Part shown: positions 2,352 through 62,428 of the stretch, in pieces | How positions within the stretch are numbered: position 1 is the stretch's first letter | Layout of the letters: each line of letters begins with the position of its first letter | Assembly (NCBI GenBank): GCA_022683945.1 | Contig: JAJHSH010000067.1 | Location: 2,085-66,084, forward strand | Direction: 5' to 3' | Length of the DNA stretch: 64,000 bases | Source of the DNA: Candidatus Acetothermia bacterium | Lineage (GTDB): Bacteria; Bipolaricaulota; Bipolaricaulia; RBG-16-55-9; DRXL01 | The notes under the pieces: generated by a model | What the model saw: only the letters and a program-made list of their open reading frames with translations | Database searches by the model: none | What the model was told of the DNA's origin: nothing | Program-made: the position numbers and the translations under genes

Positions 2352-3377
2352 TCATGCCAACTTGCCGATAGCTCTGGCAGGCCTGAAGATACCCCTCTCC
2401 GTAATGATGGCGGTAATAAGGAAACGGGGCGTGATATCGAAGGCAGGGTTTCGCGCTTTGGCCCCGCGAGGGGCCAGCTTTATCCCTTGAATATGGGTAA
2501 CTTCTTTGGGCTCGCGCTCCTCAATGGAGATTCCGCTGCCGTCTTTGAGGGAAGGATCAATGGTGGAGGTCGGCGCGGCTACGTAAAAGGGAATCTTATG
2601 ATGGTGAGCCAAGACGGCCAATGAATAAGTCCCGATCTTGTTGGCTACATCGCCGTTTGCCGCAATGCGGTCGGCACCCACAATCACTCTGCTCACCTCG
2701 CCCCGCTGCATAAGAGAGCCTGCGGCATTATCTACAATGATCTCAAATGGGATGCCCTCTTGAGCAAGCTCCCAAGCAGTGAGTCTTAACCCCTGCAGCA
2801 GCGGCCTTGTTTCAGCTACTAAGACTTTTATTCTTTTGCCCTGCTGCCAGGCGGCCTTAATGATGCCTAAAGCTGTGCCATACTCCGCGGTTGCCAGAGC
2901 TCCCGTGTTGCAATGCGTCAAGATCGCATCGCCTTCTTTGATCAACTTGGCGCCGTTTCGGCTCAATCTCTTGTCAGCTTCAAGGCCCTCTTGCTTTATG
3001 CGGTGGGCTTCGGCCAACAGGGCCTGCTGAAGCTTCCGCAGTCCCTCGTGGCGATGCTTCTCAAAGATCTCTTTCATTCGAGCGATGGCCCAGAAGAGAT
3101 TGACGGCGGTAGGTCTAGTCCGACTTAGCTCTTCGACAATGGAGGCAAATTTTTCGTCGAGATGCTTTTCATCTTTGAGGTTCTTTGCTCCCAGCACGAT
3201 CCCATAGGCAGAGGCCACGCCGATGGCCGGAGCTCCTCGCACGGCCATTTCCTTAATCGCGGCTGCCACCCCTTTGTGATCCTTGAGCTTTAGGATCTTA
3301 ACGCGATTAGGCAACTGGCGCTGGTCAACCAGTTCCACACGCCCATCAGCCCAATTCACCACTTGCACCCTTCTCAC
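2352..3377 (-). CDS. mtnA: S-methyl-5-thioribose-1-phosphate isomerase (eIF-2B alpha/beta/delta family)
   Basis: 341 aa. Strong family resemblance (GAPAIGVASAYG, HCNTGALAT, VLVAETRPLLQG, IVGADRIAANGDVANKIGTYSLAVLAHHHKIPFYVAAPTSTID). Confidence 0.85.
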   Translation of the reverse strand: MRRVQVVNWADGRVELVDQRQLPNRVKILKLKDHKGVAAAIKEMAVRGAPAIGVASAYGIVLGAKNLKDEKHLDEKFASIVEELSRTRPTAVNLFWAIARMKEIFEKHRHEGLRKLQQALLAEAHRIKQEGLEADKRLSRNGAKLIKEGDAILTHCNTGALATAEYGTALGIIKAAWQQGKRIKVLVAETRPLLQGLRLTAWELAQEGIPFEIIVDNAAGSLMQRGEVSRVIVGADRIAANGDVANKIGTYSLAVLAHHHKIPFYVAAPTSTIDPSLKDGSGISIEEREPKEVTHIQGIKLAPRGAKARNPAFDITPRFLITAIITERGIFRPARAIGKLA

Positions 3378-7421: not shown

Positions 7422-8497
7422 TATTTTCTCTGTAAAAGCGCTAAGATGCGCTTATTGGCCGCTGGAAAAGCGAAGCTCTCTAAGTTCTCCAACTCCACCC
7501 ATCTCCAGGGGCGTTGGCTCTTTGGTCTATGCCGGAGATGTTGACATTCAAAGACGTGCAGCGTCACGGTGAAGTGCGAGTAGCCGTGCTCGATGACCGT
7601 AAGCGGGCGCACTTGATTGACCCGCATCCCGGTCTCTTCAGCGATCTCACGCACAAGAGTTCTCCTGAGGGTCTCGTTCTCTTGACGCTTGCCTCCGGAG
7701 AATTCCCAAAGCCCTCCTAGGAGCCCGTCATCGGGCCGACGGGCGATGAAGATCTTATTCTCTTTCCAGATGACGCCGACGGCGACCTCGTAGTGGGGCT
7801 TGGTGCGCTTGGGGGCAGTTATGGGTAATTCTTGCTGCAGGTCGCGGCGTCGCGCCTCGCAGAAGGGACTGAGCGGACAGAGGAGACAGCTTGGTCTCTT
7901 GGGAAGACAGATCGTTGATCCCAAATCCATCAGGGCTTGGTTGAACTCTCCAGTTTGTCCTGGGGGGATCAGTTGACGGCAGAGACTCTCTAAAAGTTTC
8001 TCTGTGGCAGGCTTGCGCGGATCTTTGCGCAGGGCGAAGAGCCTACAGAGAACGCGACGGGCATTGGCATCGAGAGCGGGCTCGTCTCTCTCAAACGCGA
8101 TGCTGAGAATCGCTCCAGCCGTATAGCGTCCCACTCCGGGAAGCTTCAGAAGCGCTTCTCGTTCTGAAGGGATTTTTCTGTTGTAATCGCGCACGACGAT
8201 CTGAGCAGATCTGTGAAGATTCCGCGCGCGTGCATAATAGCCCAGCCCCTCCCAAAGTTTGAGCACATCGTCGAGCGGCGCGCGCGCCAGTGCTTCTATA
8301 GTGGGGAATTCTTCGAGAAACCGTTTATAGTACGGAAGAGTCGTCTTCACTTGGGTCTGCTGGAGCATAACTTCTGAGACCCAGATACGATAAGGGTCTT
8401 TGGTCTTTCTCCAGGGGAGGTCGCGCTGGTGGCGCGCGTAGAATTGGAGGAGCGCCTTGGCGATAGCTGAAGCCCGCTTAAGAAGAGGGTGCGACAT
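7388..8497 (-). CDS. mutY: A/G-specific adenine DNA glycosylase MutY (HhH-GPD plus C-terminal NUDIX-like domain)
   Basis: Motifs WRKTKDPYRIWVSEVMLQQTQV, LPGVGRYTAGAIL. 4Fe-4S Cys cluster CLPKRPSCLLCPLSPFC. Start is taken at the Met of MSHPLLKRA (codon 37 of the ORF-track call); the longer N-terminus overlaps another ORF. Confidence 0.85.
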   Translation of the reverse strand: MSHPLLKRASAIAKALLQFYARHQRDLPWRKTKDPYRIWVSEVMLQQTQVKTTLPYYKRFLEEFPTIEALARAPLDDVLKLWEGLGYYARARNLHRSAQIVVRDYNRKIPSEREALLKLPGVGRYTAGAILSIAFERDEPALDANARRVLCRLFALRKDPRKPATEKLLESLCRQLIPPGQTGEFNQALMDLGSTICLPKRPSCLLCPLSPFCEARRRDLQQELPITAPKRTKPHYEVAVGVIWKENKIFIARRPDDGLLGGLWEFSGGKRQENETLRRTLVREIAEETGMRVNQVRPLTVIEHGYSHFTVTLHVFECQHLRHRPKSQRPWRWVELENLESFAFPAANKRILALLQRKYQKRQRRAAIS

Positions 8498-8846
8498 GGG
8501 CGATGCGCTCCGGGTTGGGGAGGCCGGCCTCTTCGCGGCAGAGGAGTTCCCACCAGAGGCGCATCCGATACCGGGGCGAATCTTTAAGAATCTGACAGAT
8601 CGCACGGCGCAGCCACCATCTCAGATAATAGACGGACTGCAGTGCGCCTTCTGTAGAAGGCCAGTGAATATAGATATAGTGTCTGTCGGTCAAGTCTTGG
8701 AGGCATTCTAGAATCAAGTCCGAAGAACGGCCCAAACGGTCTGCTAGGCGCAGCGCGCTGGCCGCGCCCTCGTACCAGAGCGAATGCAAGATATCTGCTT
8801 GGAGCTGCAGTCGTTCTTCTCTGGACAGTCTGAGAGCCGTTTCCAT
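8478..8846 (-). CDS. Small hypothetical protein, possible winged-helix regulator
   Basis: 122 aa ORF upstream of mutY on the same strand. The segment AASALRLADRLGRSSDLILECLQDLTDRHYI resembles a wHTH recognition region. Weak call. Confidence 0.3.
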   Translation of the reverse strand: METALRLSREERLQLQADILHSLWYEGAASALRLADRLGRSSDLILECLQDLTDRHYIYIHWPSTEGALQSVYYLRWWLRRAICQILKDSPRYRMRLWWELLCREEAGLPNPERIAHVAPSS

Positions 8847-8954
8847 ACACTAAAATTTATAGCGCGAAAGGGGTCAAATGTCAAGAGGGGGCCTCGGTCC
8901 CCTTGGCTCGATTACTTGACAACCCCGCATAGTGCTTGCTACTATAAAACTCTC

Positions 8955-38660: not shown

Positions 38661-39149
38661 TTACTGGGTTGTGCCCTCCTTGTAGGGGTTATAGCCCAGC
38701 AACCAGCGATACGTGATCAGTTGCCCCAAGTGGTAGTATTCGTGGCGTGCCACCCAACGGACGAGCTCTTCTGGCTCGACCGTCGGTTCTTTGAAGTACT
38801 GACGCCAGCTCTCCGGCACTGGAATAGGTCTTACCAGTTGTTCATCCGTGGCCGACTTTAGAAAGCTGACGGTCTCCGCGCGAATCTTTTCAAGCTCCTT
38901 CAAGGTTGCGCCAGCGTCGTTGCCACTCCAAGTAACCGCCTTCTCCCAGTCAGGTTTGGGATGACCGGCAGCCACTGTCATGCAGACCCTCTCCATAGTC
39001 CCAATCTCTTGGAGCAGATCCTTGGGTGATTTCATGTCTGGACGTGGATGCCAATCGAACTCCTCGGGCTTGAGCTTGCGCACTATATCGACCAGCTCTT
39101 GCCTAATATCTTCCAGCTCCCAAAGCAGCCTTTGGGACAGCTTTGCCAT
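38661..39149 (-). CDS. DinB-family protein (paralog 3)
   Basis: 162 aa; VARHEYYHLGQLITYRWLLGYNPY. Confidence 0.65.
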   Translation of the reverse strand: MAKLSQRLLWELEDIRQELVDIVRKLKPEEFDWHPRPDMKSPKDLLQEIGTMERVCMTVAAGHPKPDWEKAVTWSGNDAGATLKELEKIRAETVSFLKSATDEQLVRPIPVPESWRQYFKEPTVEPEELVRWVARHEYYHLGQLITYRWLLGYNPYKEGTTQ

Positions 39150-39567: not shown

Positions 39568-40050
39568 TCACGACTGCTTGTATGGGTTATATCCCAGCAG
39601 CCAACGGTTATAGATCAACTGCCCCAAGTGATAATACTCGTGTCGGGCAACCCAACGTATCATCTCTTCGGGCTCCCGGCGCGGTCCTGTGTAGCGGTGC
39701 CAGCTCTCCGGCATCTCCACCGGCTTGTGCAGATCGTCATGTGAAAGCGAGTCAAGATAGCGAAGCGTCTCTTTTCGAATGCTTGCTAAATCTTTCAAGA
39801 TTGATTTGAGATTATCACCGCTCCACTTCACGGCCGTCTCCCATTTGAGTGGCGGTCCCCCAGCAATCACGTTGATACATACCTTCTCCGTTGCGCCGAT
39901 CTCCTGCAACAGCGCCTTGGCCGACCTCATCCCCGGTCTTGGTGGCCAGTCGAACTCCTCCGGCTTCATAGAACGAGATGTCTTTAGCAACTCTTCGCGA
40001 ATCTCTTTCAGCTCTTTGAGCAAGCGCGCCTTATGGGTATCTTTCATCAC
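39568..40050 (-). CDS. DinB-family protein (paralog 4; close tandem paralog of 38661-39149)
   Basis: 160 aa; colinear with paralog 3 (EEFDW.PRP.M.S.K.LLQEIG..E.VC..V.AG.P...WE.AV.WSG......LK.L..IR.ET...L.S.....L..P...PESW..Y..P..EPEE..RWVARHEYYHLGQLI..RWLLGYNPYK). Confidence 0.65.
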   Translation of the reverse strand: MMKDTHKARLLKELKEIREELLKTSRSMKPEEFDWPPRPGMRSAKALLQEIGATEKVCINVIAGGPPLKWETAVKWSGDNLKSILKDLASIRKETLRYLDSLSHDDLHKPVEMPESWHRYTGPRREPEEMIRWVARHEYYHLGQLIYNRWLLGYNPYKQS

Positions 40051-40192: not shown

Positions 40193-41329
40193 CTACGCAC
40201 CGTTCGACGACTCCGGCGCCGCTGCCAGCAGCGTAGCCGCAGACTTGCGCGTCCCGCGTCGCGCGGGTCTTTCTGGTTCGGTCGAAAGACTGCTCTCTTC
40301 TTCTGCAGAAGCAGCTTGCTCTGGCTGTCCATTGGTGGACGGGAGAGCCAGACCGGCCTTCTCGCGAATCGCGCGCTCCAACTGCTGGGCCACTTCTTTG
40401 TTCGCCTCCAAGAACGCAGCAGCATTCGCGATCCCTTGGCCCAAGCGCGTCTCACCCAAATTGAACCACGAGCCGCTCTTCTTCACCAAGCCCAACTGCT
40501 CCCCGGTCTTGATGAGTTCGCGCTCGTAAACGATGCCCTTGCCGTAGATAATATCGAACTTCGCTTCTTTAAACGGTGGCGCGAGCTTGTTCTTGACAAC
40601 TTTTACAACCGTCTCGCTGCCCACGCGGTTGTCGCCCTCTTCGATGCTCCCCAAGCGCTTGATCTCCATGCGCACGGACGAGTAGAACTTCAGCGCCAAG
40701 CCCCCCGTCGTCGTCGTCGTCGGCCCCCAACCCGTCCCGGAGATCGTCTGGCGAATCTGATTGATAAAGACGACCGTTGTTTTAGATTGTGAGATCGCCG
40801 CGGCCAGCTTGCGCATCGCTTGGCTCATTAAGCGGGCTTGCAGCCCCACTTGGGCATCGCCCATCGCCCCGGCAATTTCAGCTTCGGGGACGAGCGCCGC
40901 GACCGAATCTACGACGATAATATCTACAGCCCCGCTGCGCACGAGCGTCTCCATGATCTCCAGCGCTTGCTCTCCAGAATTGGGCTGCGAGAGCAAGATC
41001 TTATCGAGATCTACGCCGATGACACGGGCATAGCTGGGATCGAGCGCGTGTTCAGCATCAATGAAAGAAACGACGCCGCCGCGCTTCTGCGCTTGCGCCA
41101 ATATATGAAGCGCCAAGGTCGTCTTGCCCGAAGACTCCGGCCCGAAGATTTCGACAATCCTGCCGCGCGGCACGCCCCCAATTCCTAACGCCACATCGAG
41201 CGCCAGCGAGCCTGTAGGAATCGTCTCCACCGGGAGCTTGCTCTGCTCCCCCAGCCACATAATCGCGCCCTCGCCGTACTTGCGGCGCAGCCCGTCCAAT
41301 ACACTATTGAGCACTTCTTGCTTGCCCAT
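40193..41329 (-). CDS. recA: Recombinase RecA
   Basis: Start at Met 42 of the ORF-track call ([36 protein letters not shown]). Walker [10 protein letters not shown] and full-length RecA similarity; long acidic/Ser-rich C-terminal tail. Confidence 0.95.
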
Positions 41330-41975
41330 CGGTCTCCCTCCTATGGAGAATCTCTTGTAGATTATGTAACGAGTGTTTGACTCGTCGCACGACGCCGACC
41401 ACCCGACCGACGATCTGGCCCTCGCCCAGCGGCATAGACCTGTAGCGCGCATTCGCCGGGACGAGCCAAGGCTGGTTCTCTTTCATCATAAAGAACTTCA
41501 CCGTCGCTTCGTTCTCTTTAATCGCGACGACGATCTCGCCCGGCTGCACCATAGATTGTGGCTGTACGATCACCAGATCACCGTTGAGAATGCCAGCTTC
41601 GATCATGCTATCGCCCTGAACTCGCAGAGCAAAAGGACGTTCATCCCGCCCAAACCAGACATCCAAGTTAAGCACCTCTTGGACGTCTTCTACCGCGGGG
41701 ATCGGACGCCCCGCGGCGATCTGCCCGACGACGGGAATCCCGCGCTCACGCCGACGAGCTTGCCCAATCACTTCGATCCCGCGCGATTTTCCTATCAAGC
41801 GCCGGATAGCCCCCTTGCGCTCTAGCGCTTCCAGATGCGTCTGGACGCTCCGCACCGAGCGCATCCCAAAATGCTGGGCGATCTCCCTCAATGTGGGCGG
41901 CATCCCCTGATCCGAGATGCACTCAACGATAAAATCCAGAATCCGTCTCTGCTTCTCCGTCAATTCGCTCCTCAT
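41304..41975 (-). CDS. lexA: LexA repressor
   Basis: N-terminal wHTH ([53 protein letters not shown]) and S24 peptidase domain with GDSM. 3' end overlaps the recA start by 26 nt. ATG at 41975 (alternative 41984). Confidence 0.9.
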
Positions 41976-41985
41976 AACACTCATA

Positions 41986-42014
41986 AGTATAGCATACAAA
42001 TATACGGTTGTCAA
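41986..42014 (-). promoter_or_regulatory. lexA promoter TTGACA-N17-TATACT (minus strand) with overlapping imperfect palindrome GTATATTTGTATGCTATAC
   Basis: -35 TTGACA = reverse complement of 42009-42014; -10 TATACT = reverse complement of 41986-41991. The ATG at 41975 lies about 3-4 nt after the predicted TSS (near-leaderless). Confidence 0.45.
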
Positions 42015-42054: not shown

Positions 42055-42180
42055 CCAAAAACCGCGCGATCTGTCTGTCAGGGAGACGCTCGCCTATCAC
42101 TTCAAGCGTGTCGAGCACCCGATGGGGTGACTCATAGAACACAACGGTACAAGACTCTCTAGCTATCTGTTGAAAGAACT
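42055..42180 (-). pseudogene. rsmI internal fragment (diverged duplicate of 43376-43500)
   Basis: About 85 nt nearly identical to the intact rsmI (GCGCGATCTGTCTGTCAGGGAGACGCTCGC[C/T]TATCACTTCAAGCGTGTCGAGCACCCGATGGGG...), with weaker similarity continuing for about 60 nt. Confidence 0.55.
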
Positions 42181-43062: not shown

Positions 43063-43962
43063 TTATTGCAGAAATCTTACGCGCGCGTTCTTTCCAACAA
43101 CTTTCTCATAGACTTCCCGCTTAGGAACCCTTCTCAGTTGGGCGACCCGCTTGATCGCTTCTTTCTTCTCTAGTCCTCCAGCGACGAGCTTCTGCACATG
43201 CTCCACAACTGAAAGCTCTAAGTCTTTGCTGGCTTCTTCACTCTCTTCTTGAACTGACGCGCTGGAGAGCACCAAGGTGATCTCCCCTTTGATCGCCGGG
43301 CGCGATTTCAGCTGCTCCAAAATCTCGCTGGGCTTGCCCCGCAGAATCTCCTCGTGCATCTTCGTCAATTCGCGACAGAGCGCGATCTGTCTGTCAGGGA
43401 GACGCTCGCTTATCACTTCAAGCGTGTCGAGCACCCGATGGGGCGACTCATACAGAACGATAGTGCGTCTCTCGTTTTGCAATCGCTCGAAGAGTGCACG
43501 CTTGGCTTTGAGTTTCTTCGGTGGGACACCCTCGAAGAGAAAGCTGTCGGTGGAGAACCCCGATGCGACCAATGCTGTGATGAGGGCCGTCGGCCCCGGA
43601 ATGGGAACAACCGAGATATTTTCAGCGATTGCTCGTCGAACTAACTCGTACCCTGGATCGGAGATGAGCGGCGTCCCTGCGTCGGAGATGAGCGCGATCT
43701 TCGCCCCGGATTTGAGCTTCTGCACAAAATACTCGACGCGCTCGCGCTCCACCCCGCGATACAAGCTACGCTCGAAGGACTTCTCGATTCCGTAGTGCTG
43801 CAAGAGCTTCCGTGAATGTCGGGTGTCTTCAGCGATGATCAGATCGCACTCTTTGAGAACTCGCAGCGCCCGCAGCGTGATGTCTTCTAAGTTCCCGATG
43901 GGCGTGGCGACGATGAATAATGCGCCGGAAGACCTCTCTCCCAGCCCCTCCCCAACCCTCAC
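43063..43962 (-). CDS. rsmI: 16S rRNA (cytidine1402-2'-O)-methyltransferase RsmI
   Basis: GALFIVATPIGNLEDITLRALRVLKECDLIIAEDTRHSRKLL and the rest of the tetrapyrrole-methylase fold. Proposed GTG start at 43962 (codon 77 of the ORF-track call; GGGAGAGGG upstream); the longer call runs through GC-rich hairpin repeats and overlaps prfB. Confidence 0.7.
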   Translation of the reverse strand: MRVGEGLGERSSGALFIVATPIGNLEDITLRALRVLKECDLIIAEDTRHSRKLLQHYGIEKSFERSLYRGVERERVEYFVQKLKSGAKIALISDAGTPLISDPGYELVRRAIAENISVVPIPGPTALITALVASGFSTDSFLFEGVPPKKLKAKRALFERLQNERRTIVLYESPHRVLDTLEVISERLPDRQIALCRELTKMHEEILRGKPSEILEQLKSRPAIKGEITLVLSSASVQEESEEASKDLELSVVEHVQKLVAGGLEKKEAIKRVAQLRRVPKREVYEKVVGKNARVRFLQ

Positions 43963-44029
43963 CCCGTCCCTCTCCCTTGAAGGGAGAGGGTGCAGGGTGA
44001 GGGTCCCCCTTCCCGCGTTGGGAAGGGGG
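43955..44029. repeat. GC-rich nested hairpin repeat element (ACCCTCACCCC-G-TCCCTCTCCC / GGGAGAGGG-TGCA-GGGTGAGGGT, then CCCCCTTCCC-GCGTT-GGGAAGGGGG)
   Basis: Perfect or near-perfect inverted repeats read directly. Related copies at 18821-18844, 29518-29537, 38620-38641, 40096-40163 and 52087-52108. Confidence 0.7.
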
Positions 44030-44112
44030 CTTCGGGGGTTAGGTCTTGCATTTCTCACACAACAATCATAGAATACTGTCAGTAGATTGTGCAAACAAGG
44101 AGGAAGATAGCC

Positions 44113-45184
44113 GTGCTCCAAGAACTTCGCGACCGCCTTACGCAGATCGCTGATCGCCTTTGACTTGTCGGCTCTAGAAGCCGAACTCAAAACGCTGGAA
44201 GATCAGATGGCCGTTCCCGGTTTTTGGCAGGAGAGAGAGCGAGCGAAGCTCCTCTCCCAGCAAGTCGAGCAGAAGCGCCGAATTCTTCAGAAATATCAAG
44301 CGCTTGAGACCCAGCTCGACGACTTAGAAGTCTTAGAGGAGTTGGGCAAGGCCGAGGGCGACCCCTCCGTCGAGCGCGAGGTTCAGCTTGGCGCTCAGGA
44401 GTTCGGAAAGCGTTTAGAGATACTCGAACTTGAAGCCTTTCTCAATGAGCCCTACGACGAGAACGATTGTTATCTCAGCATCAACGCCGGCGCTGGGGGC
44501 ACCGACGCACAAGACTGGGCCGAGATGCTCCTGAGAATGTATTTGCGCTACCTCGAAAGACGGCGTTGGCGAGCAAGTTTGATCGAAGTCAGCCCCGGCG
44601 AAGTCGCTGGAATTAAGAGCGCCACGGTCGAAATCTCTGGGCCGTATGCGTATGGCTATCTGAAGGCCGAGCGCGGCGTCCATCGGTTGGTGCGAATCTC
44701 GCCGTTTGACGCGAACGCCCGGCGGCACACGTCGTTTGCCGCCGTTACGGCAGTTCCCAAGGTCGAAGAGGCCGACGTCGAGATCCGCCCGGAAGATTTG
44801 CGCATTGACACCTATCGCGCCGGAGGAGCGGGCGGCCAACACGTCAATAAGACAGATTCTGCTGTGAGAATCACGCACCTGCCCACGGGGATCGTCGTGG
44901 CGTGTCAAAAAGAGAGAAGTCAGCACCAGAACAAAGCCATCGCGATGGAGATTCTCACGGCGCGTTTATATGAACTGAATCTTCGAGAGAAAGAAAAAGA
45001 GTTAGCAAAAGTGCGCGGGGAGCTGCGCGCGATTGAGTGGGGCAGCCAGATTCGGTCGTATGTCTTGCAGCCCTATCAGTTGGTGAAAGACCATCGCACG
45101 GAGATCGAAGTCGGGAACGTACAGGCTGTCTTGGACGGCGAGCTGGATACTTTTATTGAGGGGTATCTGAGACGGAAGCGATAA
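44113..45184 (+). CDS. prfB: Peptide chain release factor 2, with programmed +1 ribosomal frameshift
   Basis: Frame-0 leader GTG(44113)...CGC CTT TGA C with in-frame TGA at 44161-44163. Shifting +1 at CTT (44158-44160) joins to DLSALEAELK... (ORF-track 44165). SPF (RISPFD) and GGQ (GAGGQHVN) motifs present. AAGGAGG upstream of the GTG. Confidence 0.85.
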
Positions 45185-55697: not shown

Positions 55698-56264
55698 TTA
55701 GCTCCTGACCAGTGCTTGGCGCAGCTGTTGGATGAACTTGGGATCGCCGACGGAGCGAACCCCGCGAAAGAGGATCTCTCCCTGAGGGCTTAAGAGCAGT
55801 ATCATGCCGCGCTCTCGCACCCGATAACGATGGGCCACGGGATTCATTCGCGAGTCAAGAACATAGCGAAAGTCGGGGTGGCCGTAGAGACGACGGTGCT
55901 CTCTTAAGTCTTCTACAGAATCATTGAATGGATCGAAGCTGATCCAGATGATCTGTAATTGGTCGCGGTATTTCTCGTAGAATTGTGCTAGGCTCCGAGT
56001 CTCAGGGCGACAGGTGATGCACCATGCAGCGGAGAAGTAGAGCAAGACGGGTTTGCCGCGTAGCGCACTCAGCTTTAACGTGCGACCTTCGGCATCGTTG
56101 AGCGAAAAATCCGGCGCGCTCTGGCCTATGGCCTCGGAAGACTCAGAAGACGAGAACGGGTTCCAAAGCAGCAGCAGCAGGGCGCCGCCCAGCGCCAGCG
56201 CAACGATGCCGGCGACCAGCAGCCCTTTGGAAGGCTTTGCTTGCGGTGGCTTGGCTTTGTTCAT
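55698..56264 (-). CDS. Thiol-disulfide oxidoreductase (TlpA/ResA-like thioredoxin)
   Basis: Start at Met 25 of the ORF-track call (MNKAKPP...TM anchor); WCITC active site. Confidence 0.8.
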   Translation of the reverse strand: MNKAKPPQAKPSKGLLVAGIVALALGGALLLLLWNPFSSSESSEAIGQSAPDFSLNDAEGRTLKLSALRGKPVLLYFSAAWCITCRPETRSLAQFYEKYRDQLQIIWISFDPFNDSVEDLREHRRLYGHPDFRYVLDSRMNPVAHRYRVRERGMILLLSPQGEILFRGVRSVGDPKFIQQLRQALVRS

Positions 56265-56379
56265 AGTTGGATGATTATAATAGACTCCTTGAGAGAGGAC
56301 AACTGCACAGCGCTCCGGCGGGTGACGGCTGAGCACCCGTTACCAAAGCCGGCGGGTTTACCGACTGTGCTACGCTGGA

Positions 56380-56561
56380 AGTCTGTTACGCTGAAAGGGA
56401 TCACGCCGGAGCTAGAGAAGAAAGAGATCGAAAATATCCCGTTGGGGCGCGTTGGACAACCCAAAGACGTTGCCGACGTGATTGTCTTTCTAGCTTCAGA
56501 GCAGGCACGCTGGGTGACGGGGCAGCTCATTTACGTCGGTGGTGGACACGTGATGCCGTAG
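56380..56561 (+). pseudogene. SDR (FabG-like) 3' gene fragment
   Basis: Translation ...TPELEKKEIENIPLGRVGQPKDVADVIVFLASEQARWVTGQLIYVGGGHVMP matches only the last about 55 aa of an SDR; no Rossmann/catalytic region upstream. Confidence 0.5.
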
Positions 56562-56610
56562 GCCGGTCGGCCCGCCCAGCGTCGGCTGGAAGCGGTGGTT
56601 AGCCAGCGAC

Positions 56611-57000
56611 TTACCAAGTGATGGTCTGGAGACCTGCAATGTCCTGGAAGTGGTCATCGCGCGTGGCAAGCGTGAGCTGATGTTGCTGTGCGAGCGCCGC
56701 AATCCAGATGTCGTTTTCCGGCAGTGGCCGTCCCTTCAAGCGCAGGAGGTTCTTGACCTCCCCGTAGTGGCGGGCGGTTTCGGTGTCGCAGACCAGCACT
56801 ACTCCGCTGGCGGCCAAGTCGTCAATGCGCGCCAGATTCTGGCTCGGTCGGCCCGACTTCCGCGCGCCATAGTACAACTCGCCCAGCACGATGCTGGGCA
56901 GAAACACCTCCGCCGCCTGGGCGAGTTGCTGCTTGACTTCGGCTTCGTCGGCAAACAGGGCGATGAGGATATTGGTGTCAAGCAAGTATCTACCATTCAT
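56611..57000 (-). CDS. vapC: PIN-domain toxin VapC
   Basis: Start at Met 11 of the ORF-track call (MNGRYLLDTNILIA); PIN acidic residues (D..N, E, D); 11-nt overlap with the upstream antitoxin gene. Confidence 0.8.
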   Translation of the reverse strand: MNGRYLLDTNILIALFADEAEVKQQLAQAAEVFLPSIVLGELYYGARKSGRPSQNLARIDDLAASGVVLVCDTETARHYGEVKNLLRLKGRPLPENDIWIAALAQQHQLTLATRDDHFQDIAGLQTITW

Positions 57001-57217
57001 GGGGATCGACCTGCTCACATCCTTGGTCAATAGCGTCGCGAATGAGAGTCACATCGTCCAGAGGGATGACACCGGCAAAGCGGAGGAGTTGCTGGCCGGG
57101 GACACCGTGGGGAGTCGATAGCGCTAAGGCACGAGTAAACTCGAGTACCCGCCATTGCAACTCGTGGGGCAGGGCTTTCAGTTGTTCAATGACCTTCTCG
57201 ATAATGGGCGTTTCCAT
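56990..57217 (-). CDS. VapB-type antitoxin (small helical protein)
   Basis: 75 aa ORF overlapping the vapC start; family not recognised. Confidence 0.5.
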   Translation of the reverse strand: METPIIEKVIEQLKALPHELQWRVLEFTRALALSTPHGVPGQQLLRFAGVIPLDDVTLIRDAIDQGCEQVDPHEW

Positions 57218-57341
57218 CGTGACCTCCTCTCCCTCCGAATCTTATCTCAGTTCCAGATCGCGTGTTTTGAGGCTGCCGAACCGCGCTGGCTAACGCTCAG
57301 CATCAGCGGCGGCGCGCAGCGCTATCCACTGCAACCGGTTG

Positions 57342-57827
57342 TTATGCGTCACTCTCAGGCGCCACCACCTTGCGATCCCACGAGCGATACTTCCACGGGA
57401 CAACCTCCTCGAGATAGGTAACACGAGGACTCGGCATGTTCCCAGGGCCGTCACCGATGTTCGCAAGGGACGGCAGCTTCTTCTTGAGTACAGCGTGGCG
57501 ATCCTCCGGAATGAATACCCAGGGTTGGACTTGCCAGGTTTCCGGCACACAGCAATCGCGAATAAGAGCTACCCGAAGGCCGGGCCAATTGTCGCTCCAA
57601 GCCTGAAGCCGCCCGATCAACGCGTGCAACGTACCAGAGTATGTAACCTCACATAGGTAAACCGCGCAGTCGCGAAAATTGGCTGCCACGACGTCGCAAT
57701 ACCAACTAGTGCCCTTGGCTGGTACATCACCGGGGGCAAGCTGCAGCAAGCACTCGGTATTCACGAACATTGCACGATCAGCGCGAAGATACTCGGAAAC
57801 CACTCCCTGAAAATAGTCCACCGTCAT
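57342..57827 (-). CDS. Cys-rich hypothetical protein
   Basis: 161 aa, 7 Cys and several Trp; no recognised domain. Driven by the consensus promoter at 57904-57932. Confidence 0.4.
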   Translation of the reverse strand: MTVDYFQGVVSEYLRADRAMFVNTECLLQLAPGDVPAKGTSWYCDVVAANFRDCAVYLCEVTYSGTLHALIGRLQAWSDNWPGLRVALIRDCCVPETWQVQPWVFIPEDRHAVLKKKLPSLANIGDGPGNMPSPRVTYLEEVVPWKYRSWDRKVVAPESDA

Positions 57828-57867
57828 CACCTCGGAGTTCGGCTTGCTGACGCATAACTATTGATTA

Positions 57868-57944
57868 GACGGCATTCTGCGGTCTCATCTCTTTTCGCCG
57901 GCAATTATAAACCCGACTCGGCTCGCTGTCAACATCTGTTGAAC
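57868..57944 (-). promoter_or_regulatory. Repeat copy A: consensus promoter TTGACA-N17-TATAAT (minus strand) with palindrome GTCAACA-TC-TGTTGAA over the -35
   Basis: Minus-strand -35 = reverse complement of 57927-57932, -10 = reverse complement of 57904-57909. About 85% identical over about 80 nt to 59204-59279. Confidence 0.6.
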
Positions 57945-57965
57945 TGTGTGCTTTAGAGCGCACTT

Positions 57966-58241
57966 TCACTTTACGTCTTCCAGTTTTGTGCCACGGCCCG
58001 CGCGAAGGCTCTGGCGCGCCCGCTCGATCCTTTGCAGGAATCGCGGATCGTTTTCCAGTCGGTAGTCGAACCAGTCGTCCTCCGACTCAAAGCCGATGAG
58101 CACTCCCGCGGGTCTGCCGTGGCGGGTGATCACGATCTCACCCTTTGCCGCCTCGCGGAGATACCGCGACAGCTCGTCCTTGACTTCCGCCAATGGGACT
58201 TCCTTCACTTTTCTTCTGACTTTCCGTGCTTCGCCAGCCAT
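57966..58241 (-). CDS. Phd/YefM-family antitoxin
   Basis: 91 aa; EVPLAEVKDELSRYLREAAKGEIVITRHGRPAGVLIGFESEDDW. Confidence 0.7.
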   Translation of the reverse strand: MAGEARKVRRKVKEVPLAEVKDELSRYLREAAKGEIVITRHGRPAGVLIGFESEDDWFDYRLENDPRFLQRIERARQSLRAGRGTKLEDVK

Positions 58242-58504
58242 GGTGCAGCCTCCGATTTCGGCACTATCGCCAACACCTCGACATTCTGCTCCCTTACGTC
58301 GTAGAACACTCGTACGTCGCCGATCCGAAGACGGTACTGCGGTTGCGAGAGCTTTCGGAGTCGCTTGATGCGGCTACGACTGAGCCTCTCGGGTTCGTGC
58401 CGAAGATGCGTTTCGATCCCTTCACGTACCTCGGTGCGGACATTGGCCTTCAGTTCGTCGAGATCCTCTATCGCCTCCGGGGCCAAAATGATCTCGTACG
58501 GCAT
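58205..58504 (-). CDS. RelE/ParE-family toxin
   Basis: 99 aa; ...YRLRIGDVRVFYDVREQNVEVLAIVPKSE; located upstream of the Phd gene with a 37-nt overlap. Confidence 0.7.
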   Translation of the reverse strand: MPYEIILAPEAIEDLDELKANVRTEVREGIETHLRHEPERLSRSRIKRLRKLSQPQYRLRIGDVRVFYDVREQNVEVLAIVPKSEAAPWLAKHGKSEEK

Positions 58505-58656
58505 TCTAGCCAGATTATAGCCAGAAAACCTAGCGCGCGCTAGTGCGCTCTAACGGTTTGCATCAGCCGCCCGCGAGCGGAGCGAGCGAAGCGGGTCGGC
58601 TGGACGCGGGGTTGGGCCGCCTTTCACTTGCAACGCTGACGCCTGCCACAATGGGT

Positions 58657-59181
58657 TTATGTCCCTACAATGGTTCGCGTATCTTGCCACCCATAGGCAA
58701 CTTCGACAAGTCGTTGGTTGCCGATTTCGATTCCCTTCTCTCGCAGGTACTTGCCGCCAAGTGCTTCGTAGAACTTGCGGAATGGATTTGCTGTCAAGAC
58801 CCAGATGAGCAATGAAGTAATGCCACGCTGCTGTAGTTCTTTTGTCGAAGCCCTGAAAAGCATGCTTCCGATGCCTTGGCGCTGATAGTTTTGAAGCAAA
58901 TAAAGCGCATAGATTTCGCCCTTGTAGGTGTCATCTCCCTCGCGTTCAGGGCCAGCGCATGCAAAGCCGACCACTTCGCGGTCAGGAGTTCCAGCAACAT
59001 AGAGGAAACTTTGACGGGTAGGCGATGAAAGCGTATTGTTCCACATCTCTGCGCGTTGTTCATATGACAGCGAAGCCAAGAACTCGCTTGAGACGATGTC
59101 CGCGTAAGTTGTTCGCCAGCTGTCAACGTGTACTTTGGCAATAGCGAGAGCGTCTTTGGCTTCAGCCTTGCGAATAAGCAT
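58657..59181 (-). CDS. GNAT-family N-acetyltransferase
   Basis: Start at Met 11 of the ORF-track call (MLIRKAEAKDA); acetyl-CoA motif QRQGIGSMLF. Confidence 0.8.
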   Translation of the reverse strand: MLIRKAEAKDALAIAKVHVDSWRTTYADIVSSEFLASLSYEQRAEMWNNTLSSPTRQSFLYVAGTPDREVVGFACAGPEREGDDTYKGEIYALYLLQNYQRQGIGSMLFRASTKELQQRGITSLLIWVLTANPFRKFYEALGGKYLREKGIEIGNQRLVEVAYGWQDTRTIVGT

Positions 59182-59203
59182 ATTTATTCGTGTTGTACAA
59201 TCA

Positions 59204-59279
59204 GACGGCATCTTGTAGTCTCATCTCTTTTCGCTGGCAATCATAAACCCGACTCGTCTCGGTGTCAACATCTGTTGAC
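59204..59279 (-). promoter_or_regulatory. Repeat copy B: TTGACA-N17-TATGAT promoter with perfect palindrome GTCAACA-TC-TGTTGAC
   Basis: Minus-strand -35 = reverse complement of 59263-59268, -10 = reverse complement of 59240-59245; palindrome at 59264-59279. Confidence 0.6.
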
Positions 59280-59347
59280 CGGTGCGCTATGGAACTCCGT
59301 TGGGTTCTTCCACTCTTGTTCTACCACAATGCACAACCTTTTTTATG

Positions 59348-60526
59348 TTACCTCGCTCTTAATCCCCGCCCTGCCGGAGACGACCGCTGCGCAGGATGCA
59401 ACGGGGTCGCACGATAGTCAAAATCCGGCACGATGACGCGGGGCAGTTTCTTGCCGATCAGGTTCTCGATGGCCCGCACGGTCCCCTCTTCTTCTGGAGA
59501 GACGAGAGTGAAAGCATCGCCGATGGCTTGCGCTCTGGCAGTACGCCCAATGCGATGAATGTAATCTTCAGGTGTGGCCGGCATATCGTAATTGATGACG
59601 TGTGAGATGCCCTCGACGTCCAGCCCACGAGCAGCAATATCCGTCGCCACTAAGATCTTGTAGCGCCCGGCACGAAACCCTTCCAGCGAATGAGAGCGCT
59701 GCCCTTGGCTGCGATCTCCGTGAATACGCGCGACCGAATGGCCATGCTGATGAAGCACGCGCGCGACCTTGTCGGCTCCATGTTTCGTTCTTGTGAAGAT
59801 CAGCACCGATGTCGTCAGCGTCGTCTGGAGAATTTTGAGGAGCAACTTAGTTTTGAGATGGCGCGGAACTTCGTAGAGAAACTGCGCTACGCCCTCTACA
59901 GGAGTAGCCCGCTTGTCGACCTCTACCAGTACAGGGGCGACGAGCGTCTGCCGCGCTAGGTGCTCGATCTCCACTGGAAGGGTAGCGGAAAAAAGCAGCG
60001 TCTGGCGCTTCCGCGGAAGCCTCGCCAAGATTCTCTTGATATCGGGCAGGAAGCCCATGTCCAGCATACGGTCGGCCTCATCGAGCACCAATATCTGCAA
60101 CTGATGGAATTTAACCGCGCCACGGTTGATATGATCGAGCAGACGCCCGGGAGTGGCTACGACGATATCCACGCCCTTGCGTAGGGCCTCGAGTTGCGGC
60201 CGCATCGCAACGCCGCCATAGAGCGCTGTGCAGCGCAGTGTCAAGAAGCGTGCGTAGTCGCGCACGTTGGTCTCTACTTGCGCGGCCAGTTCGCGTGTGG
60301 GCAGGAGGATGAGAGCGCGCAGGCCCGAACCCGTCTTGAGCTTCTCTAAGATGGGCAGAACGAAGGCTGCTGTCTTGCCGGTGCCGGTGCGCGCTGTACC
60401 CAGCAGATCTTTTCCAGCCAAGATAAGCGGGATCGCCTGAGATTGGATCGGAGTCGGTTCATGGTAGCCGACTGCGCGCACACCGCGGACGACATTATGA
60501 GAGAGACCTAATTGTGAAAAGGGCAT
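59348..60526 (-). CDS. DEAD-box ATP-dependent RNA helicase
   Basis: Q-motif/Walker A TGTGKT, DEAD (VLDEAD), SAT, HRIGRTAR; basic C-terminal tail. Confidence 0.9.
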   Translation of the reverse strand: MPFSQLGLSHNVVRGVRAVGYHEPTPIQSQAIPLILAGKDLLGTARTGTGKTAAFVLPILEKLKTGSGLRALILLPTRELAAQVETNVRDYARFLTLRCTALYGGVAMRPQLEALRKGVDIVVATPGRLLDHINRGAVKFHQLQILVLDEADRMLDMGFLPDIKRILARLPRKRQTLLFSATLPVEIEHLARQTLVAPVLVEVDKRATPVEGVAQFLYEVPRHLKTKLLLKILQTTLTTSVLIFTRTKHGADKVARVLHQHGHSVARIHGDRSQGQRSHSLEGFRAGRYKILVATDIAARGLDVEGISHVINYDMPATPEDYIHRIGRTARAQAIGDAFTLVSPEEEGTVRAIENLIGKKLPRVIVPDFDYRATPLHPAQRSSPAGRGLRAR

Positions 60527-61761: not shown

Positions 61762-62142
61762 CTATGGTAAACCAAGAGCTGCTTTCTCCACCTCAGCGAG
61801 GATTACAGCAAAATGAGGCTCTGTGCTCTCTATGACACCGGTAGAAATGTGCTTGTGATGAGGAAATGTGCTAACCTCTAGATGATGTGGAGCATTATCG
61901 TAACGAAAAATCAGCTGATTATTTGCGTCCATATAATGATAGCGATACTTCTCTCGTTCTAAACTCTGTTCTCTCTGACGAAGAAACTCAAAGAAAACCA
62001 GACGTGACCCATCTATCAAGAGAACCTCGCCCTCAATGTATCCTGTCGTTGGGCTGAGTTCAACAGTTTGAAAGCTATGAATGGCTACAGCGACGCAGTT
62101 TCGGAGAGCCGCGTCTATAGATGCAGCATAAGCCTTAAGCAT
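61762..62142 (-). CDS. Hypothetical protein (His-rich PHH/HHKH motifs)
   Basis: 126 aa; overlaps the upstream ORF by 8 nt, suggesting a two-gene module. Confidence 0.35.
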   Translation of the reverse strand: MLKAYAASIDAALRNCVAVAIHSFQTVELSPTTGYIEGEVLLIDGSRLVFFEFLRQREQSLEREKYRYHYMDANNQLIFRYDNAPHHLEVSTFPHHKHISTGVIESTEPHFAVILAEVEKAALGLP

Positions 62143-62428
62143 CGCCCGATTGCGCCAGCACTTCTCCCAAGCCTTGCCGAGTCGCCTGCCAATCTATTTG
62201 AGCTTGGGCTAGGGCATACCAGCGAAAGAAGTCTTGATCGTCTCCGATCTCTCCGGCCTCGAACTTGCGCAAGAATTCTTCTGTTGACCAGCCGTACTGG
62301 GCTTCAAAAACTTTGCATTGCTCGGTCAATCGTGCTAACGCTGCCTCGGACAACTTCCGCTCGCGCTCTAGAGAACGGACGACTTCAGATTTGAACTGCA
62401 TCGTTCCTCCTGAGGATATTATACTCAA
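62135..62428 (-). CDS. Hypothetical small helical protein
   Basis: 97 aa, charged helical; upstream partner of 61762-62142. Confidence 0.35.
   Translation of the reverse strand: MSIISSGGTMQFKSEVVRSLERERKLSEAALARLTEQCKVFEAQYGWSTEEFLRKFEAGEIGDDQDFFRWYALAQAQIDWQATRQGLGEVLAQSGDA

What the first reader, a model, noticed from the sequence alone, without database searches (positions are those of the whole stretch)
57868..59279. Duplicated about 80-bp promoter/operator module (consensus -35/-10 plus 7-2-7 palindrome) driving two unrelated genes
Positions 57868-57944 and 59204-59279 are about 85% identical. Read on the minus strand, each gives TTGACA-N17-TATAAT / TATGAT, an essentially consensus sigma70 promoter. 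Each also carries the inverted repeat GTCAACA-TC-TGTTGAC (perfect in copy B, one mismatch in copy A) overlapping the -35. Both copies carry ATGCCGTCT at the same offset. Copy A drives a Cys-rich unknown protein (57342-57827) and copy B a GNAT acetyltransferase. A TA pair lies between the copies. This looks like a portable regulatory cassette with a repressor-type operator; the cognate regulator is not obvious in the window.
Basis: seen in the sequence. Interest (0 to 1): 0.55.

Follow-up and report, generated by a model that had tools for sequence, protein, structure and literature searches.

The report
Duplicated promoter segment in integron array
Two 85%-identical 94-base segments, each with a near-perfect bacterial promoter, sit at gene-cassette junctions of a small integrase-less integron array in a Candidatus Acetothermia genome, where recombination sites should be, and probably switch on two otherwise promoterless cassette genes; this is an interesting variant of a known theme, not a new kind of system.

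Summary
The repeat is real: window 57864-57957 and 59200-59293 are 94 nt, 85% identical. On the minus strand they read TTGACA-17-TATAAT (12/12) and TTGACA-17-TATGAT (11/12), with a 7-2-7 palindrome over the -35.

Region 56.56-59.35 kb is a decayed integron cassette array without an integrase (a CALIN) in a Candidatus Acetothermia MAG. It holds four cassettes: GNAT, ParE/Phd, a 159-aa PD-(D/E)xK-fold protein and VapBC. Two attC sites are intact and one is truncated. The G|TT cassette boundaries are shared with homologous cassettes elsewhere, one in a complete integron.

Both modules lie outside the conserved cassettes, where an attC should be. Module A replaces the interior of the ParE/Phd attC. 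Module B replaces the 5' boundary of the GNAT cassette. Neither is an attC by covariance model, half-site profiles or folding.

The genome clearly uses this promoter consensus (8 sites at >=11/12 against 0.3 expected, including the tRNA and lexA promoters). The most likely reading is therefore paralogous internal array promoters feeding the two promoterless cassettes.

No other copies were found in public collections, and no regulator was identified. Promoter activity is inferred only. The finding is a new variant of a known kind and of moderate interest.

The parts
59200..59293 (-). Module B: -35 TTGACA 59268-59263, -10 TATGAT 59245-59240, perfect palindrome GTCAACAGATGTTGAC 59279-59264. Predicted transcription start about 59233, giving a ~52-nt leader to the GNAT ATG at 59181.
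   Evidence: No attC model or half-site hit.
57864..57957 (-). Module A: -35 TTGACA 57932-57927, -10 TATAAT 57909-57904, palindrome with one mismatch 57943-57928, small hairpin AGACCGCAGAATGCCGTCT 57885-57867. Predicted transcription start about 57897, giving a ~76-nt leader to GTG 57821. The segment 57952-57859 fills the gap between the ParE/Phd R'' box and the G|TT junction of the next cassette.
58657..59181 (-). GNAT acetyltransferase cassette ORF (174 aa). Its normal cassette start G|TTGGGCCGC, 62 nt upstream of the ATG in L016 and L017, is missing here; module B lies in that position.
58545..58620 (-). Intact attC of the GNAT cassette (R'' GCCCAAC 58617-58611; R' GTTAGAG 58554-58548).
   Evidence: model R1, 63.2 bits, E 1e-13. 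This site was in the training set; homologous attCs follow the GNAT gene in L016 and L017.
57953..58553 (-). ParE/Phd toxin-antitoxin cassette (ParE 58205-58504, Phd 57966-58241). It starts at TTAGAGCGCACT 58553-58542. Its own R'' remnant AGTGCGCTCTAA lies at 57964-57953. TATAAT sits 9 nt upstream of the ParE ATG (near-leaderless). The attC interior is lost and module A lies in its place.
   Evidence: (I8)
57294..57857 (-). Cys-rich cassette. It starts at TTATGCGTC (junction G57858|T57857). ORF 57342-57821 (159 aa, GTG start; PD-(D/E)xK nuclease fold). Intact attC within the model hit 57285-57350.
   Evidence: (73.6 bits)
56580..57293 (-). VapBC cassette (VapB 56990-57217, VapC PIN 56611-57030). 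It starts at TTAGCCAGCG. Only the 5' half of its attC remains (56608-56580), and this abuts an SDR gene fragment.
   Evidence: (untrained 5'-half hit at 56605-56580)
59294..59347 (-). Spacer between the helicase stop (59348-59350) and module B. It contains an R''-like box ACCCAAC 59305-59299 and CATTGTGGTAG, which weakly resembles the 3' tail of GNAT cassettes.
   Evidence: p 0.014-0.02; marginal

Best explanation
The two copies are paralogues of one ~94-nt non-coding segment carrying a consensus sigma-70 promoter. They lie inside a small, decayed, integrase-less integron cassette array (CALIN) of a Candidatus Acetothermia genome. Reading the minus strand, the order is: DEAD-box helicase | module B | GNAT cassette + attC | ParE/Phd cassette | module A | Cys-rich nuclease-fold cassette + attC | VapBC cassette + half attC | SDR fragment.

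Each module sits where a recombination site should be. Module A replaces the interior of the ParE/Phd attC, from just after its R'' box up to the G|TT junction of the next cassette. Module B replaces the upstream junction and the first ~16 nt or more of the GNAT cassette.

Inferred mechanism: with no integron platform promoter (Pc) present, RNA polymerase starts about 7 nt after each -10 box (around 59233 and 57897) and transcribes the two cassettes that have no promoter of their own. ParE/Phd carries its own conserved TATAAT, and TA cassettes generally have dedicated promoters. As a side effect, the loss of those attC sites fixes the cassette order and fuses ParE/Phd + module A + the Cys-rich gene into one unit bounded by the two remaining intact attC sites. 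The palindrome over the -35 may be a binding site for an unidentified regulator.

Shown: the repeat, the consensus match, the array anatomy, the junction positions, and the failure of the attC tests. Inferred: promoter activity, origin by duplication, and any regulation.
For: 1. Repeat and promoter match.

2. Cassette array:
- Three cassettes begin with 10-12 nt that are perfectly complementary to their own R'' box; random region pairs never reach 10 nt.
- The attC consensus fold shows an R stem, an unpaired spacer and an L stem with a bulge.
- Model R1 hits 57285-57350 (73.6 bits) and 58545-58620 (63.2 bits), and recovers untrained attCs in L013, L014, L016 and L038.
- A homologous Cys cassette in L013 shares the G|TTATGCGTCAG start and CTGACGCATAAC R'' exactly.
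- Homologous GNAT cassettes in L016 and L017 start at G|TTGGGCCGC. L016 carries a true integron integrase (TIGR02249, 481 bits against a cutoff of 265).
- The homologous ParE/Phd cassette in L038 has a normal attC after CTCTAAC, and homology with the window stops at CTCTAA|.
- There is no integrase in the window or in the 10 kb beyond it.

3. The modules are not attC sites: no model hit at E<=10 with filters off, no half-site profile hit even on a two-sequence target, and no long hairpin.

4. The promoter consensus is used by this organism: 8 sites at >=11/12, all with a 17-nt spacer, against 0.3 in shuffles. One lies 14 nt upstream of tRNA-Gly/tRNA-Leu and one upstream of lexA-recA.

5. Pattern: the modules precede the GNAT and Cys-rich cassettes. 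ParE/Phd keeps a conserved TATAAT 9 nt before its ATG in three different contexts.

6. In the 98.5% identical relative L138 the modules are absent, and the Cys-rich ORF is fused 1 nt behind the helicase stop codon. That gives it an alternative transcription source.

7. Internal sense-strand promoters in cassette arrays are established experimentally in Vibrio and Treponema (PMC11014356, PMC6557892). The CALIN definition is from PMC4889954.
Against: - There is no transcription data, and in-silico promoter calls in cassettes are known to be unreliable (PMC11014356, section on in-silico prediction).
- Only two copies exist, so conservation cannot separate functional from neutral positions. The 14 differences include one in the -10 box of copy B.
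- Read-through from the helicase gene could already transcribe GNAT, since no terminator is predicted between them.
- How a 94-nt segment came to occupy two attC positions is unexplained.
- Logan contigs from at least 5 samples branch exactly at the 3' edge of module A (31-mer 57893..57863). This hints at a further context I could not retrieve, which might favour mobility over simple duplication.
- No own promoter was identified here for VapBC, so the 'only promoterless cassettes get a module' pattern rests on few cases.
- The attC model was home-made from 7 sites, not IntegronFinder's model.
Confidence: 0.55

Rival explanations
1. The module is a small mobile or portable element (MITE-like, or a degenerate gene-less promoter cassette) that inserted independently at two attC sites.
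For: - Both copies lie just after an R''-type box: CTCTAA| for A, and ACCCAAC plus 10 nt for B.
- Both ends of the A/B homology are sharp.
- Contigs from at least 5 samples branch at the 3' edge of module A on a single shared 31-mer. Module B cannot cause this because it has 6 mismatches there, and the known strain SNPs do not explain it.
Against: - No other copy was found. The palindrome/-35/-10 pattern gave only two apparently unrelated Clostridia hits in the genome collection. The 3' block gave 0 in the metagenome collection. Both patterns gave 0 in viral contigs. blastn of the modules gave 0 in plasmids and phages.
- These were exact-pattern scans, and the collections do not contain the source samples, so the negatives are weak.
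- The module has no terminal inverted repeats, no target-site duplication common to both copies, and no attC of its own.
- Logan contig ends include artefacts.
Confidence: 0.12
2. The module is a relic of a toxin-antitoxin (ParE-type) cassette 5' region: an autoregulated promoter with its antitoxin operator palindrome plus the first codons (ATG CCG T..), truncated and then duplicated. It may or may not still fire.
For: - Module A shares CAGAATGCCGT (10-11 nt) with the ParE start region in the window, L038 and L048 (p about 0.01-0.02).
- A palindrome overlapping the -35 is typical of TA autoregulation (general knowledge).
- The array is rich in TA cassettes.
Against: - The match is short, uncorrected for multiple tests, and not shared by module B (p 0.41).
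- The ParE/Phd promoter has a different palindrome, CTAGCGCGCGCTAG.
- No TA gene fragment follows either copy.
Confidence: 0.12
3. The segments are non-functional debris of array decay, for example a partial duplication followed by deletions. Their promoter-like hexamers are inherited but give no biologically relevant transcription.
For: - The array is clearly decaying: three of five expected attC sites are lost or truncated, and an SDR gene fragment lies at its end.
- A near-identical relative does without both copies.
- The substitution pattern shows no coding or structural constraint (own codon count on the sequences).
Against: - A 12/12 and an 11/12 consensus match with the organism's preferred 17-nt spacer are very unlikely to be silent in a genome that uses exactly this consensus.
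- The -35, the palindrome and 5 of 6 -10 bases are identical in both copies despite 15% overall divergence.
Confidence: 0.15
4. The modules are atypical attC recombination sites. The 'palindrome' GTTCAAC-AGAT-GTTGACAGCG would be an R''/L'' box pair, and the sites happen to contain promoter-like hexamers.
For: - They occupy attC positions.
- GTTCAAC fits RYYYAAC, and GTTGAAC on the other strand fits GTTRRRY.
- By eye, GTTGACAGCGAG resembles the canonical L'' box GTTGCAGCGGAC.
Against: - No hit with the attC covariance model at E<=10 with filters off.
- No hit with the 5'- or 3'-half profiles at E<=1000 on a two-sequence target.
- The MFE folds show only two short local hairpins and no R or L stems (z from -2.9 to +0.8).
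- Homology between A and B continues about 60 nt beyond the putative crossover position.
Confidence: 0.05

Closest known systems
Gene-less (ORF-less) promoter cassettes of chromosomal integrons (Vibrio superintegrons, NAR 2024, PMC11014356; Treponema, Sci Rep 2019, PMC6557892)
   Same: A non-coding segment inside a cassette array that carries a sense-strand promoter and is positioned to raise expression of the next, promoterless cassette.
   Different: Those are true cassettes bounded by their own attC, so they remain mobile. Here the segment has no attC, replaces the attC of the preceding cassette, occurs twice at 85% identity, and lies in an integrase-less array of a different phylum. Activity here is only predicted.
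CALIN (cluster of attC sites lacking an integron integrase; Cury et al. 2016, PMC4889954)
   Same: At least 2 attC sites on one strand within 4 kb, no intI nearby, small unrelated same-strand genes including TA pairs and a GNAT.
   Different: This describes the context, not the module. The array is partly degraded: two intact attC sites, one half site, and two positions replaced by the module.
Integron platform promoter Pc with attI
   Same: A strong sigma-70 promoter at the head of a cassette array (module B lies between the last non-cassette gene and the first cassette).
   Different: There is no intI. There is no attI-type junction, because the GNAT cassette's own TTGGGCCGC start is missing instead of being joined at G|TT. 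A second copy lies in the middle of the array.
Fused cassettes formed by attC loss in mobile integrons (general knowledge, not checked in the paper library)
   Same: Loss of an attC joins two cassettes into one unit: ParE/Phd + module A + the Cys-rich gene now lie between two intact attCs.
   Different: Here the lost attC is replaced by a promoter-bearing segment, not simply deleted.
Autoregulated toxin-antitoxin promoters with operator palindromes
   Same: A palindrome overlapping the -35 box, and a short identity with the ParE start region.
   Different: No TA genes follow. The identity is marginal and found in one copy only.

Membership tests
Integron cassette array without integrase (CALIN) | At least two attC sites on the same strand less than 4 kb apart | tested here: met
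   Model R1 hits 57285-57350 (73.6 bits) and 58545-58620 (63.2 bits), both on the minus strand. An untrained 5' half-site lies at 56605-56580. The model is home-made (7 seeds, two of them these sites) but it recovers untrained attCs in four other loci.
Integron cassette array without integrase (CALIN) | No integron integrase nearby | tested here: met
   tblastn of the L016 IntI against the window gives a best E of 0.32. Gene calls with Pfam for 10 kb beyond the helicase show no recombinase.
Integron cassette array without integrase (CALIN) | Cassettes bounded at G|TTRRRY, with the start complementary to the cassette's own R'' box; the same cassettes occur in other arrays or integrons | tested here: met
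   Perfect complementarity of 12, 10 and 11 nt for three cassettes. Identical boundaries in L013, L016/L017 and L038. L016 has a TIGR02249 integron integrase.
attC recombination site (applied to the modules) | R''/R' and L''/L' stems with an unpaired spacer and bulged bases; a significant covariance-model score | tested here: not met
   No R1 hit at E<=10 with filters off. No half-site profile hit. The folds show only two short local hairpins.
Gene-less promoter cassette | A discrete cassette with its own attC at its 3' end and a G|TT junction at its 5' end | tested here: not met
   Module A starts directly after the R'' box of the ParE/Phd cassette and ends 5 nt before G57858|T57857, with no attC in between. 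Module B has neither junction.
Gene-less promoter cassette | [quoted passage not shown] | not testable with these tools
   This needs a reporter fusion, 5'-RACE or RNA-seq.
Sigma-70 promoter | -35 and -10 hexamers with 16-18 nt spacing matching the host's consensus | tested here: met
   12/12 and 11/12 with a 17-nt spacer. The host uses the same consensus and spacing at the tRNA and lexA promoters: 8 sites against 0.3 expected.
Sigma-70 promoter | A mapped transcription start site | not testable with these tools
   No transcript data are available.
Repressor-controlled promoter (operator) | A dyad-symmetric site overlapping core promoter elements | tested here: met
   GTCAACAGATGTTGAC overlaps 5 of the 6 -35 bases. 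It is perfect in B and has one mismatch in A.
Repressor-controlled promoter (operator) | An identified cognate DNA-binding protein or regulon | tested here: not met
   The palindrome occurs nowhere else in the window. The lexA promoter lacks it. No regulator gene lies in the array.
Known RNA family | A match to an Rfam model | tested here: not met
   There is no Rfam match in either module (56000-60000, E<=1). The only hit in the region is a sub-threshold chance match to IRES_Bip at 56899-56988.

The most novel reading that the evidence does not exclude
The 94-nt segment is a discrete element that enters attC sites next to the R'' box, either by its own mobility or through integrase-mediated recombination on the non-canonical strand. 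In one step it destroys the recombination site and supplies a strong, possibly regulated promoter. That would make it a 'cassette domestication' device that converts silent, mobile integron cassettes into fixed, expressed chromosomal genes. The unexplained contig branch at its 3' edge would then be a third insertion.
Probability: 0.1. Interest if true: 0.65.

Novelty: new variant of a known kind. Interest (0 to 1): 0.35.

Why it matters
How genes in integrase-less or distal cassette arrays get expressed is an open point. [quoted passage not shown] This locus suggests another route: a promoter segment that replaces attC sites, turning on specific promoterless cassettes while freezing the array and fusing cassettes. 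It also documents integron-type cassettes in Candidatus Acetothermia (Bipolaricaulota); a full-text search for 'integron' plus 'Acetothermia' found no paper. If promoter activity were confirmed it would be a useful but incremental addition to integron biology. It does not open a new class of system.

Tried and rejected
1. The module as an attC site. Rejected by the covariance model, the half-site profiles and folding.

2. The palindrome as a LexA box. Its core AAC-N4-GTT resembles Cheo-type boxes, and integrons are often SOS-controlled. However, lexA-recA is in the window and its promoter has no such dyad, and AACNNNNGTT is not enriched (10 against 8.3 expected).

3. The module's 3' part as the native 5'UTR of the GNAT cassette. 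The local-alignment test is not significant (p about 0.3). A test anchored at the ATG is suggestive against L016 (p 0.003-0.011) but not against L017 (p 0.07-0.15). Left open.

4. A coding role. The plus-strand ORF through module B (59128-59436) is not preserved in A beyond 33 codons, and substitutions are 4 synonymous to 7 non-synonymous codon changes (my count on the sequences). The sense-strand mini-ORFs MRPQNAV*/MRLQDAV* and MPSNQ* show no constraint.

5. Known RNA families: no Rfam match in the modules.

6. More copies elsewhere. The genome collection gave only two apparently unrelated Clostridia hits. The metagenome collection gave 0, and it does not even contain the source contigs. Viral contigs gave 0. 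Plasmids and phages gave 0.

7. An 'empty site' in relatives through the helicase. The best metagenome relatives are only 57% identical, so this was useless. The exact-protein look-up of variant P0122 succeeded instead (L138).

8. Strain SNPs as the cause of the contig branch at module A. The known SNPs are at 58991 and 56463, so this is not explained.

9. Similarity of the module to the region downstream of intI in L016. Only a shared 8-10-mer was seen by eye, which I estimate to be at chance level (sequence).
Full report
**Observation.** The reported duplication is real. The repeat finder returns one two-copy family, 57864-57957 and 59200-59293: 94 nt, 85% identical, ungapped. One copy finds the other with E = 5e-26. 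On the minus strand the copies read TTGACA-17-TATAAT (57932..57904, 12/12) and TTGACA-17-TATGAT (59268..59240, 11/12). The 16-mer GTCAACATCTGTTGAC is exact in copy B and has one mismatch in copy A; it occurs nowhere else in the window. ATGCCGTCT is present in both at the same offset.

**Organism and neighbours.** The window is part of a 145-kb contig of a Candidatus Acetothermia MAG (GCA_022683915.1, GCA_025994685.1, JGI 3300045482). All genes around the repeat lie on the minus strand:
- DEAD-box helicase, 59348-60526
- GNAT acetyltransferase, 58657-59181 (174 aa, like its homologues)
- ParE, 58205-58504, and Phd, 57966-58241
- an unknown Cys-rich protein, 57342-57821
- VapB, 56990-57217, and VapC, 56611-57030
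- on the plus strand, the C-terminal fragment of a short-chain dehydrogenase, 56271-56561

**The locus is an integron-type cassette array.**
- Homologues of the Cys-rich protein sit in long runs of small, unrelated, same-strand genes (L013, L014).
- Three units in the window begin, just after a G|TT junction, with bases perfectly complementary to a box just after their own last stop codon. This is the relation between a cassette's start and its own R'' box. For ParE/Phd it is TTAGAGCGCACT 58553-58542 against 57964-57953 (12 nt). For the Cys-rich unit it is GTTATGCGTC 57858-57849 against 57350-57341 (10 nt). For VapBC it is GTTAGCCAGCG 57294-57284 against 56608-56598 (11 nt). In 300 random pairs of 41-nt regions the longest perfect complement never reached 10 nt.
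- The spacers after GNAT and after the Cys-rich gene align with spacers from L013, L016 and L017. The shared pattern is RYYYAAC - 5 nt - GTTGCAGCGGAC ... CCGCTGAAC - 6 nt - GTTRRRY. Its consensus fold is the textbook attC: an R stem, an unpaired spacer, an L stem with a bulged base and a variable loop.
- A covariance model built from seven such sites (R1) scores 73.6 and 63.2 bits at 57285-57350 and 58545-58620 and nothing else convincing in the window. It recovers untrained attC sites in L013, L014, L016 and L038.
- A half-site profile also finds the untrained 5' half of the VapBC attC at 56605-56580. The 3' half of that attC is missing where the dehydrogenase fragment begins.
- The same cassettes occur elsewhere with the same boundaries. 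L013 shares G|TTATGCGTCAG and CTGACGCATAAC with the window, and similarity stops at that junction. The GNAT cassettes of L016 and L017 (84% and 81% protein identity) start at G|TTGGGCCGC, 62 nt before the ATG, right at the R' of an upstream attC. L038 has the ParE/Phd cassette with the same start and a normal attC.
- L016 carries a bona fide integron integrase (TIGR02249, 481 bits against a cutoff of 265).
- The window has no integrase or remnant, nor do the 10 kb beyond the helicase. By the definition of Cury et al. (PMC4889954) this is a CALIN.

**Where the modules sit.**
- *Module A.* Homology between the window and L038 ends at CTCTAA| (57953), the last bases of the ParE/Phd R'' box. Homology between the window and L013 begins at G57858|T57857. 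The 94 nt between (57952-57859) are module A plus CAATA. Module A therefore occupies the interior of what should be the ParE/Phd attC, and it lies outside the Cys-rich cassette.
- *Module B.* The GNAT cassette's own start, TTGGGCCGC, is absent, and module B lies in its place. Upstream there is an R''-like ACCCAAC (59305-59299) and a short stretch weakly resembling the 3' tail of GNAT cassettes (p 0.014-0.02).

**The modules are not attC sites.** The model gives no hit at E <= 10 with filters off. The half-site profiles give none, even against a two-sequence target. The folds show only two short local hairpins.

**Is the promoter reading credible?**
- The window contains eight sites matching TTGACA/TATAAT at >= 11 of 12 positions, all with a 17-nt spacer. 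Composition-preserving shuffles give 0.3.
- One site lies 14 nt upstream of a tRNA-Gly/tRNA-Leu pair. Another lies upstream of lexA-recA. Another has TATAAA 9 nt before an ATG, like the near-leaderless ParE start.
- So this organism uses exactly this consensus, and module A is the only perfect match in the window.
- The modules precede the GNAT and Cys-rich cassettes. The ParE/Phd cassette keeps its own TATAAT, conserved in three different contexts.
- In the close relative L138 (98.5% identical downstream) the 1521 nt from 59345 to 57825 are absent. That stretch holds module B, GNAT, ParE/Phd, module A and the 5' end of the Cys cassette. There the Cys-rich ORF starts one base after the helicase stop codon, with the helicase 3' end supplying a GAGG box. 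In both lineages, then, the promoterless cassette has an upstream transcription source.
- A deletion in the L138 lineage is the more parsimonious polarity, because the window retains the ancestral cassette start it shares with L013.
- Internal sense-strand promoters in cassette arrays are experimentally established. The same work warns that in-silico prediction in cassettes is unreliable (PMC11014356). I therefore rate function as likely, not shown.

**What remains open.**
- I found no further copy. The palindrome/-35/-10 pattern gave only two apparently unrelated Clostridia hits in 185,579 species genomes. The 3' block gave none in the metagenome collection, which does not even contain the source contigs. 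Both patterns gave none in viral contigs. blastn of the modules gave none in plasmids or phages. These were exact-pattern scans, so diverged copies would be missed.
- Logan assemblies (assumed k = 31) from at least five samples break at module A. The contig ends imply a branch on the single 31-mer 57893..57863. Module B cannot cause this because it has six mismatches there. The known strain SNPs lie elsewhere. However, one Logan contig shows a fold-back artefact, so I treat this only as a hint of a third context.
- The origin of the segment is unknown. An ATG-anchored comparison suggests its last ~28 nt may derive from a GNAT-cassette leader (p 0.003-0.011 against L016, 0.07-0.15 against L017). 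Module A also shares CAGAATGCCGT with ParE start regions (p about 0.01-0.02). Neither is conclusive.
- The palindrome has no identified binding protein. A LexA-box reading is rejected, because the lexA promoter in the window lacks such a dyad.

**Comparison with known systems.**
- The closest known things are gene-less promoter cassettes of chromosomal integrons. This works like them, as an internal sense promoter ahead of a promoterless cassette. It fails their defining structure, because it has no attC of its own and no cassette junctions.
- It is not an attC, and it is not a Pc/attI platform: there is no intI, no attI-type junction, and a second copy is internal to the array.
- The surrounding array meets the CALIN definition.
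- A consequence worth noting: with two attC positions destroyed, ParE/Phd + module A + the Cys-rich gene now lie between the only two intact attC sites. An integrase supplied in trans would be expected to move them as one fused, self-promoted unit.

**Verdict.** The real story is a duplicated promoter segment embedded in, and partly replacing, the recombination sites of a decaying integron cassette array. This is a new variant of a known kind. Interest 0.35.

Noticed in passing
window 57342-57821 (minus); alignment A3: The Cys-rich cassette protein has no Pfam or NCBIfam match but more than 230 homologues at 55-79% identity in metagenomes. AlphaFold gives pLDDT 85 and pTM 0.81, with an alpha-beta-beta-beta-alpha-beta core. 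The best PDB matches are PD-(D/E)xK nucleases: XisH (2inb, 2okf), the R2 endonuclease domain and Can2 (Foldseek E about 1e-3, TM about 0.5). D43 and E58 are invariant. It is probably a small nuclease-fold cassette protein of unknown role.
   Followed up: partly
L138 (ERR1279328), compared with window 59345-57825: A 98.5% identical relative lacks the 1521 nt carrying both modules, GNAT and ParE/Phd. There the Cys-rich ORF starts 1 nt after the helicase stop codon. This is a structural polymorphism of the array between close lineages.
   Followed up: yes
window 57893-57863; Logan contigs L005, L006, L009, L025-L027, L033-L037: Independent Logan assemblies break on one shared 31-mer at the 3' edge of module A. 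This implies another sequence with that 31-mer in a different context. It could not be retrieved, and known strain SNPs do not explain it.
   Followed up: partly
window 56271-56561 (plus) and 56580-56608: The C-terminal ~96 aa of a short-chain dehydrogenase (profile positions 183-234 of 236) abut a VapBC attC that has only its 5' half. The distal end of the array is a deletion or rearrangement scar.
   Followed up: partly
window 41304-42014 and 40193-41452 (minus): lexA lies directly upstream of recA, behind a consensus promoter (TTGACA 42014-42009, TATACT 41991-41986). The spacer and -10 region contain GTATA-N9-TATAC, a candidate LexA box for this phylum. The promoter at 8884 shares the upstream CCCCTCTTGACA.
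   Followed up: partly
window 42064-42136 and 43380-43452: A second short duplication in the window: 73 nt, 97% identical, 1316 nt apart. It lies just upstream of the lexA promoter and inside or near a tetrapyrrole methylase gene (43063-44190). A further 32-nt, 75% repeat lies at 41937/43342. Not examined.
   Followed up: no
window 58519-58502 and 8861-8844 (minus): TATAAT or TATAAA lies 9 nt before the ATG of ParE and of ORF 8478-8846. This suggests leaderless or near-leaderless mRNAs in this organism.
   Followed up: no
L016 1-3963: A complete integron from the same study series. Its intI (321-1325) is co-oriented with its cassettes and preceded by a 12/12 consensus promoter (TTGACA-18-TATAAT at 201). 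Two nearly identical 90-nt attCs lie at 1562-1651 and 2935-3024. The array carries the 84% identical GNAT cassette.
   Followed up: partly
L029 (SRR35810358_1882), last 27 nt: The contig tail is the reverse complement of its own head (window 59015-59041 joined to 56624). This is a fold-back assembly artefact or an inversion junction. It is a caution for reading Logan contig ends.
   Followed up: partly
window 61762-62428 (minus): A TumE toxin (PF20126) with an upstream 97-aa partner. This is another toxin-antitoxin pair just outside the array.
   Followed up: no
window 38676-38796 and 39574-39694: A 121-nt direct repeat at 74% identity lies within two adjacent ~160-aa minus-strand ORFs (38661-39149, 39568-40050). 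These are probably tandem paralogues.
   Followed up: no
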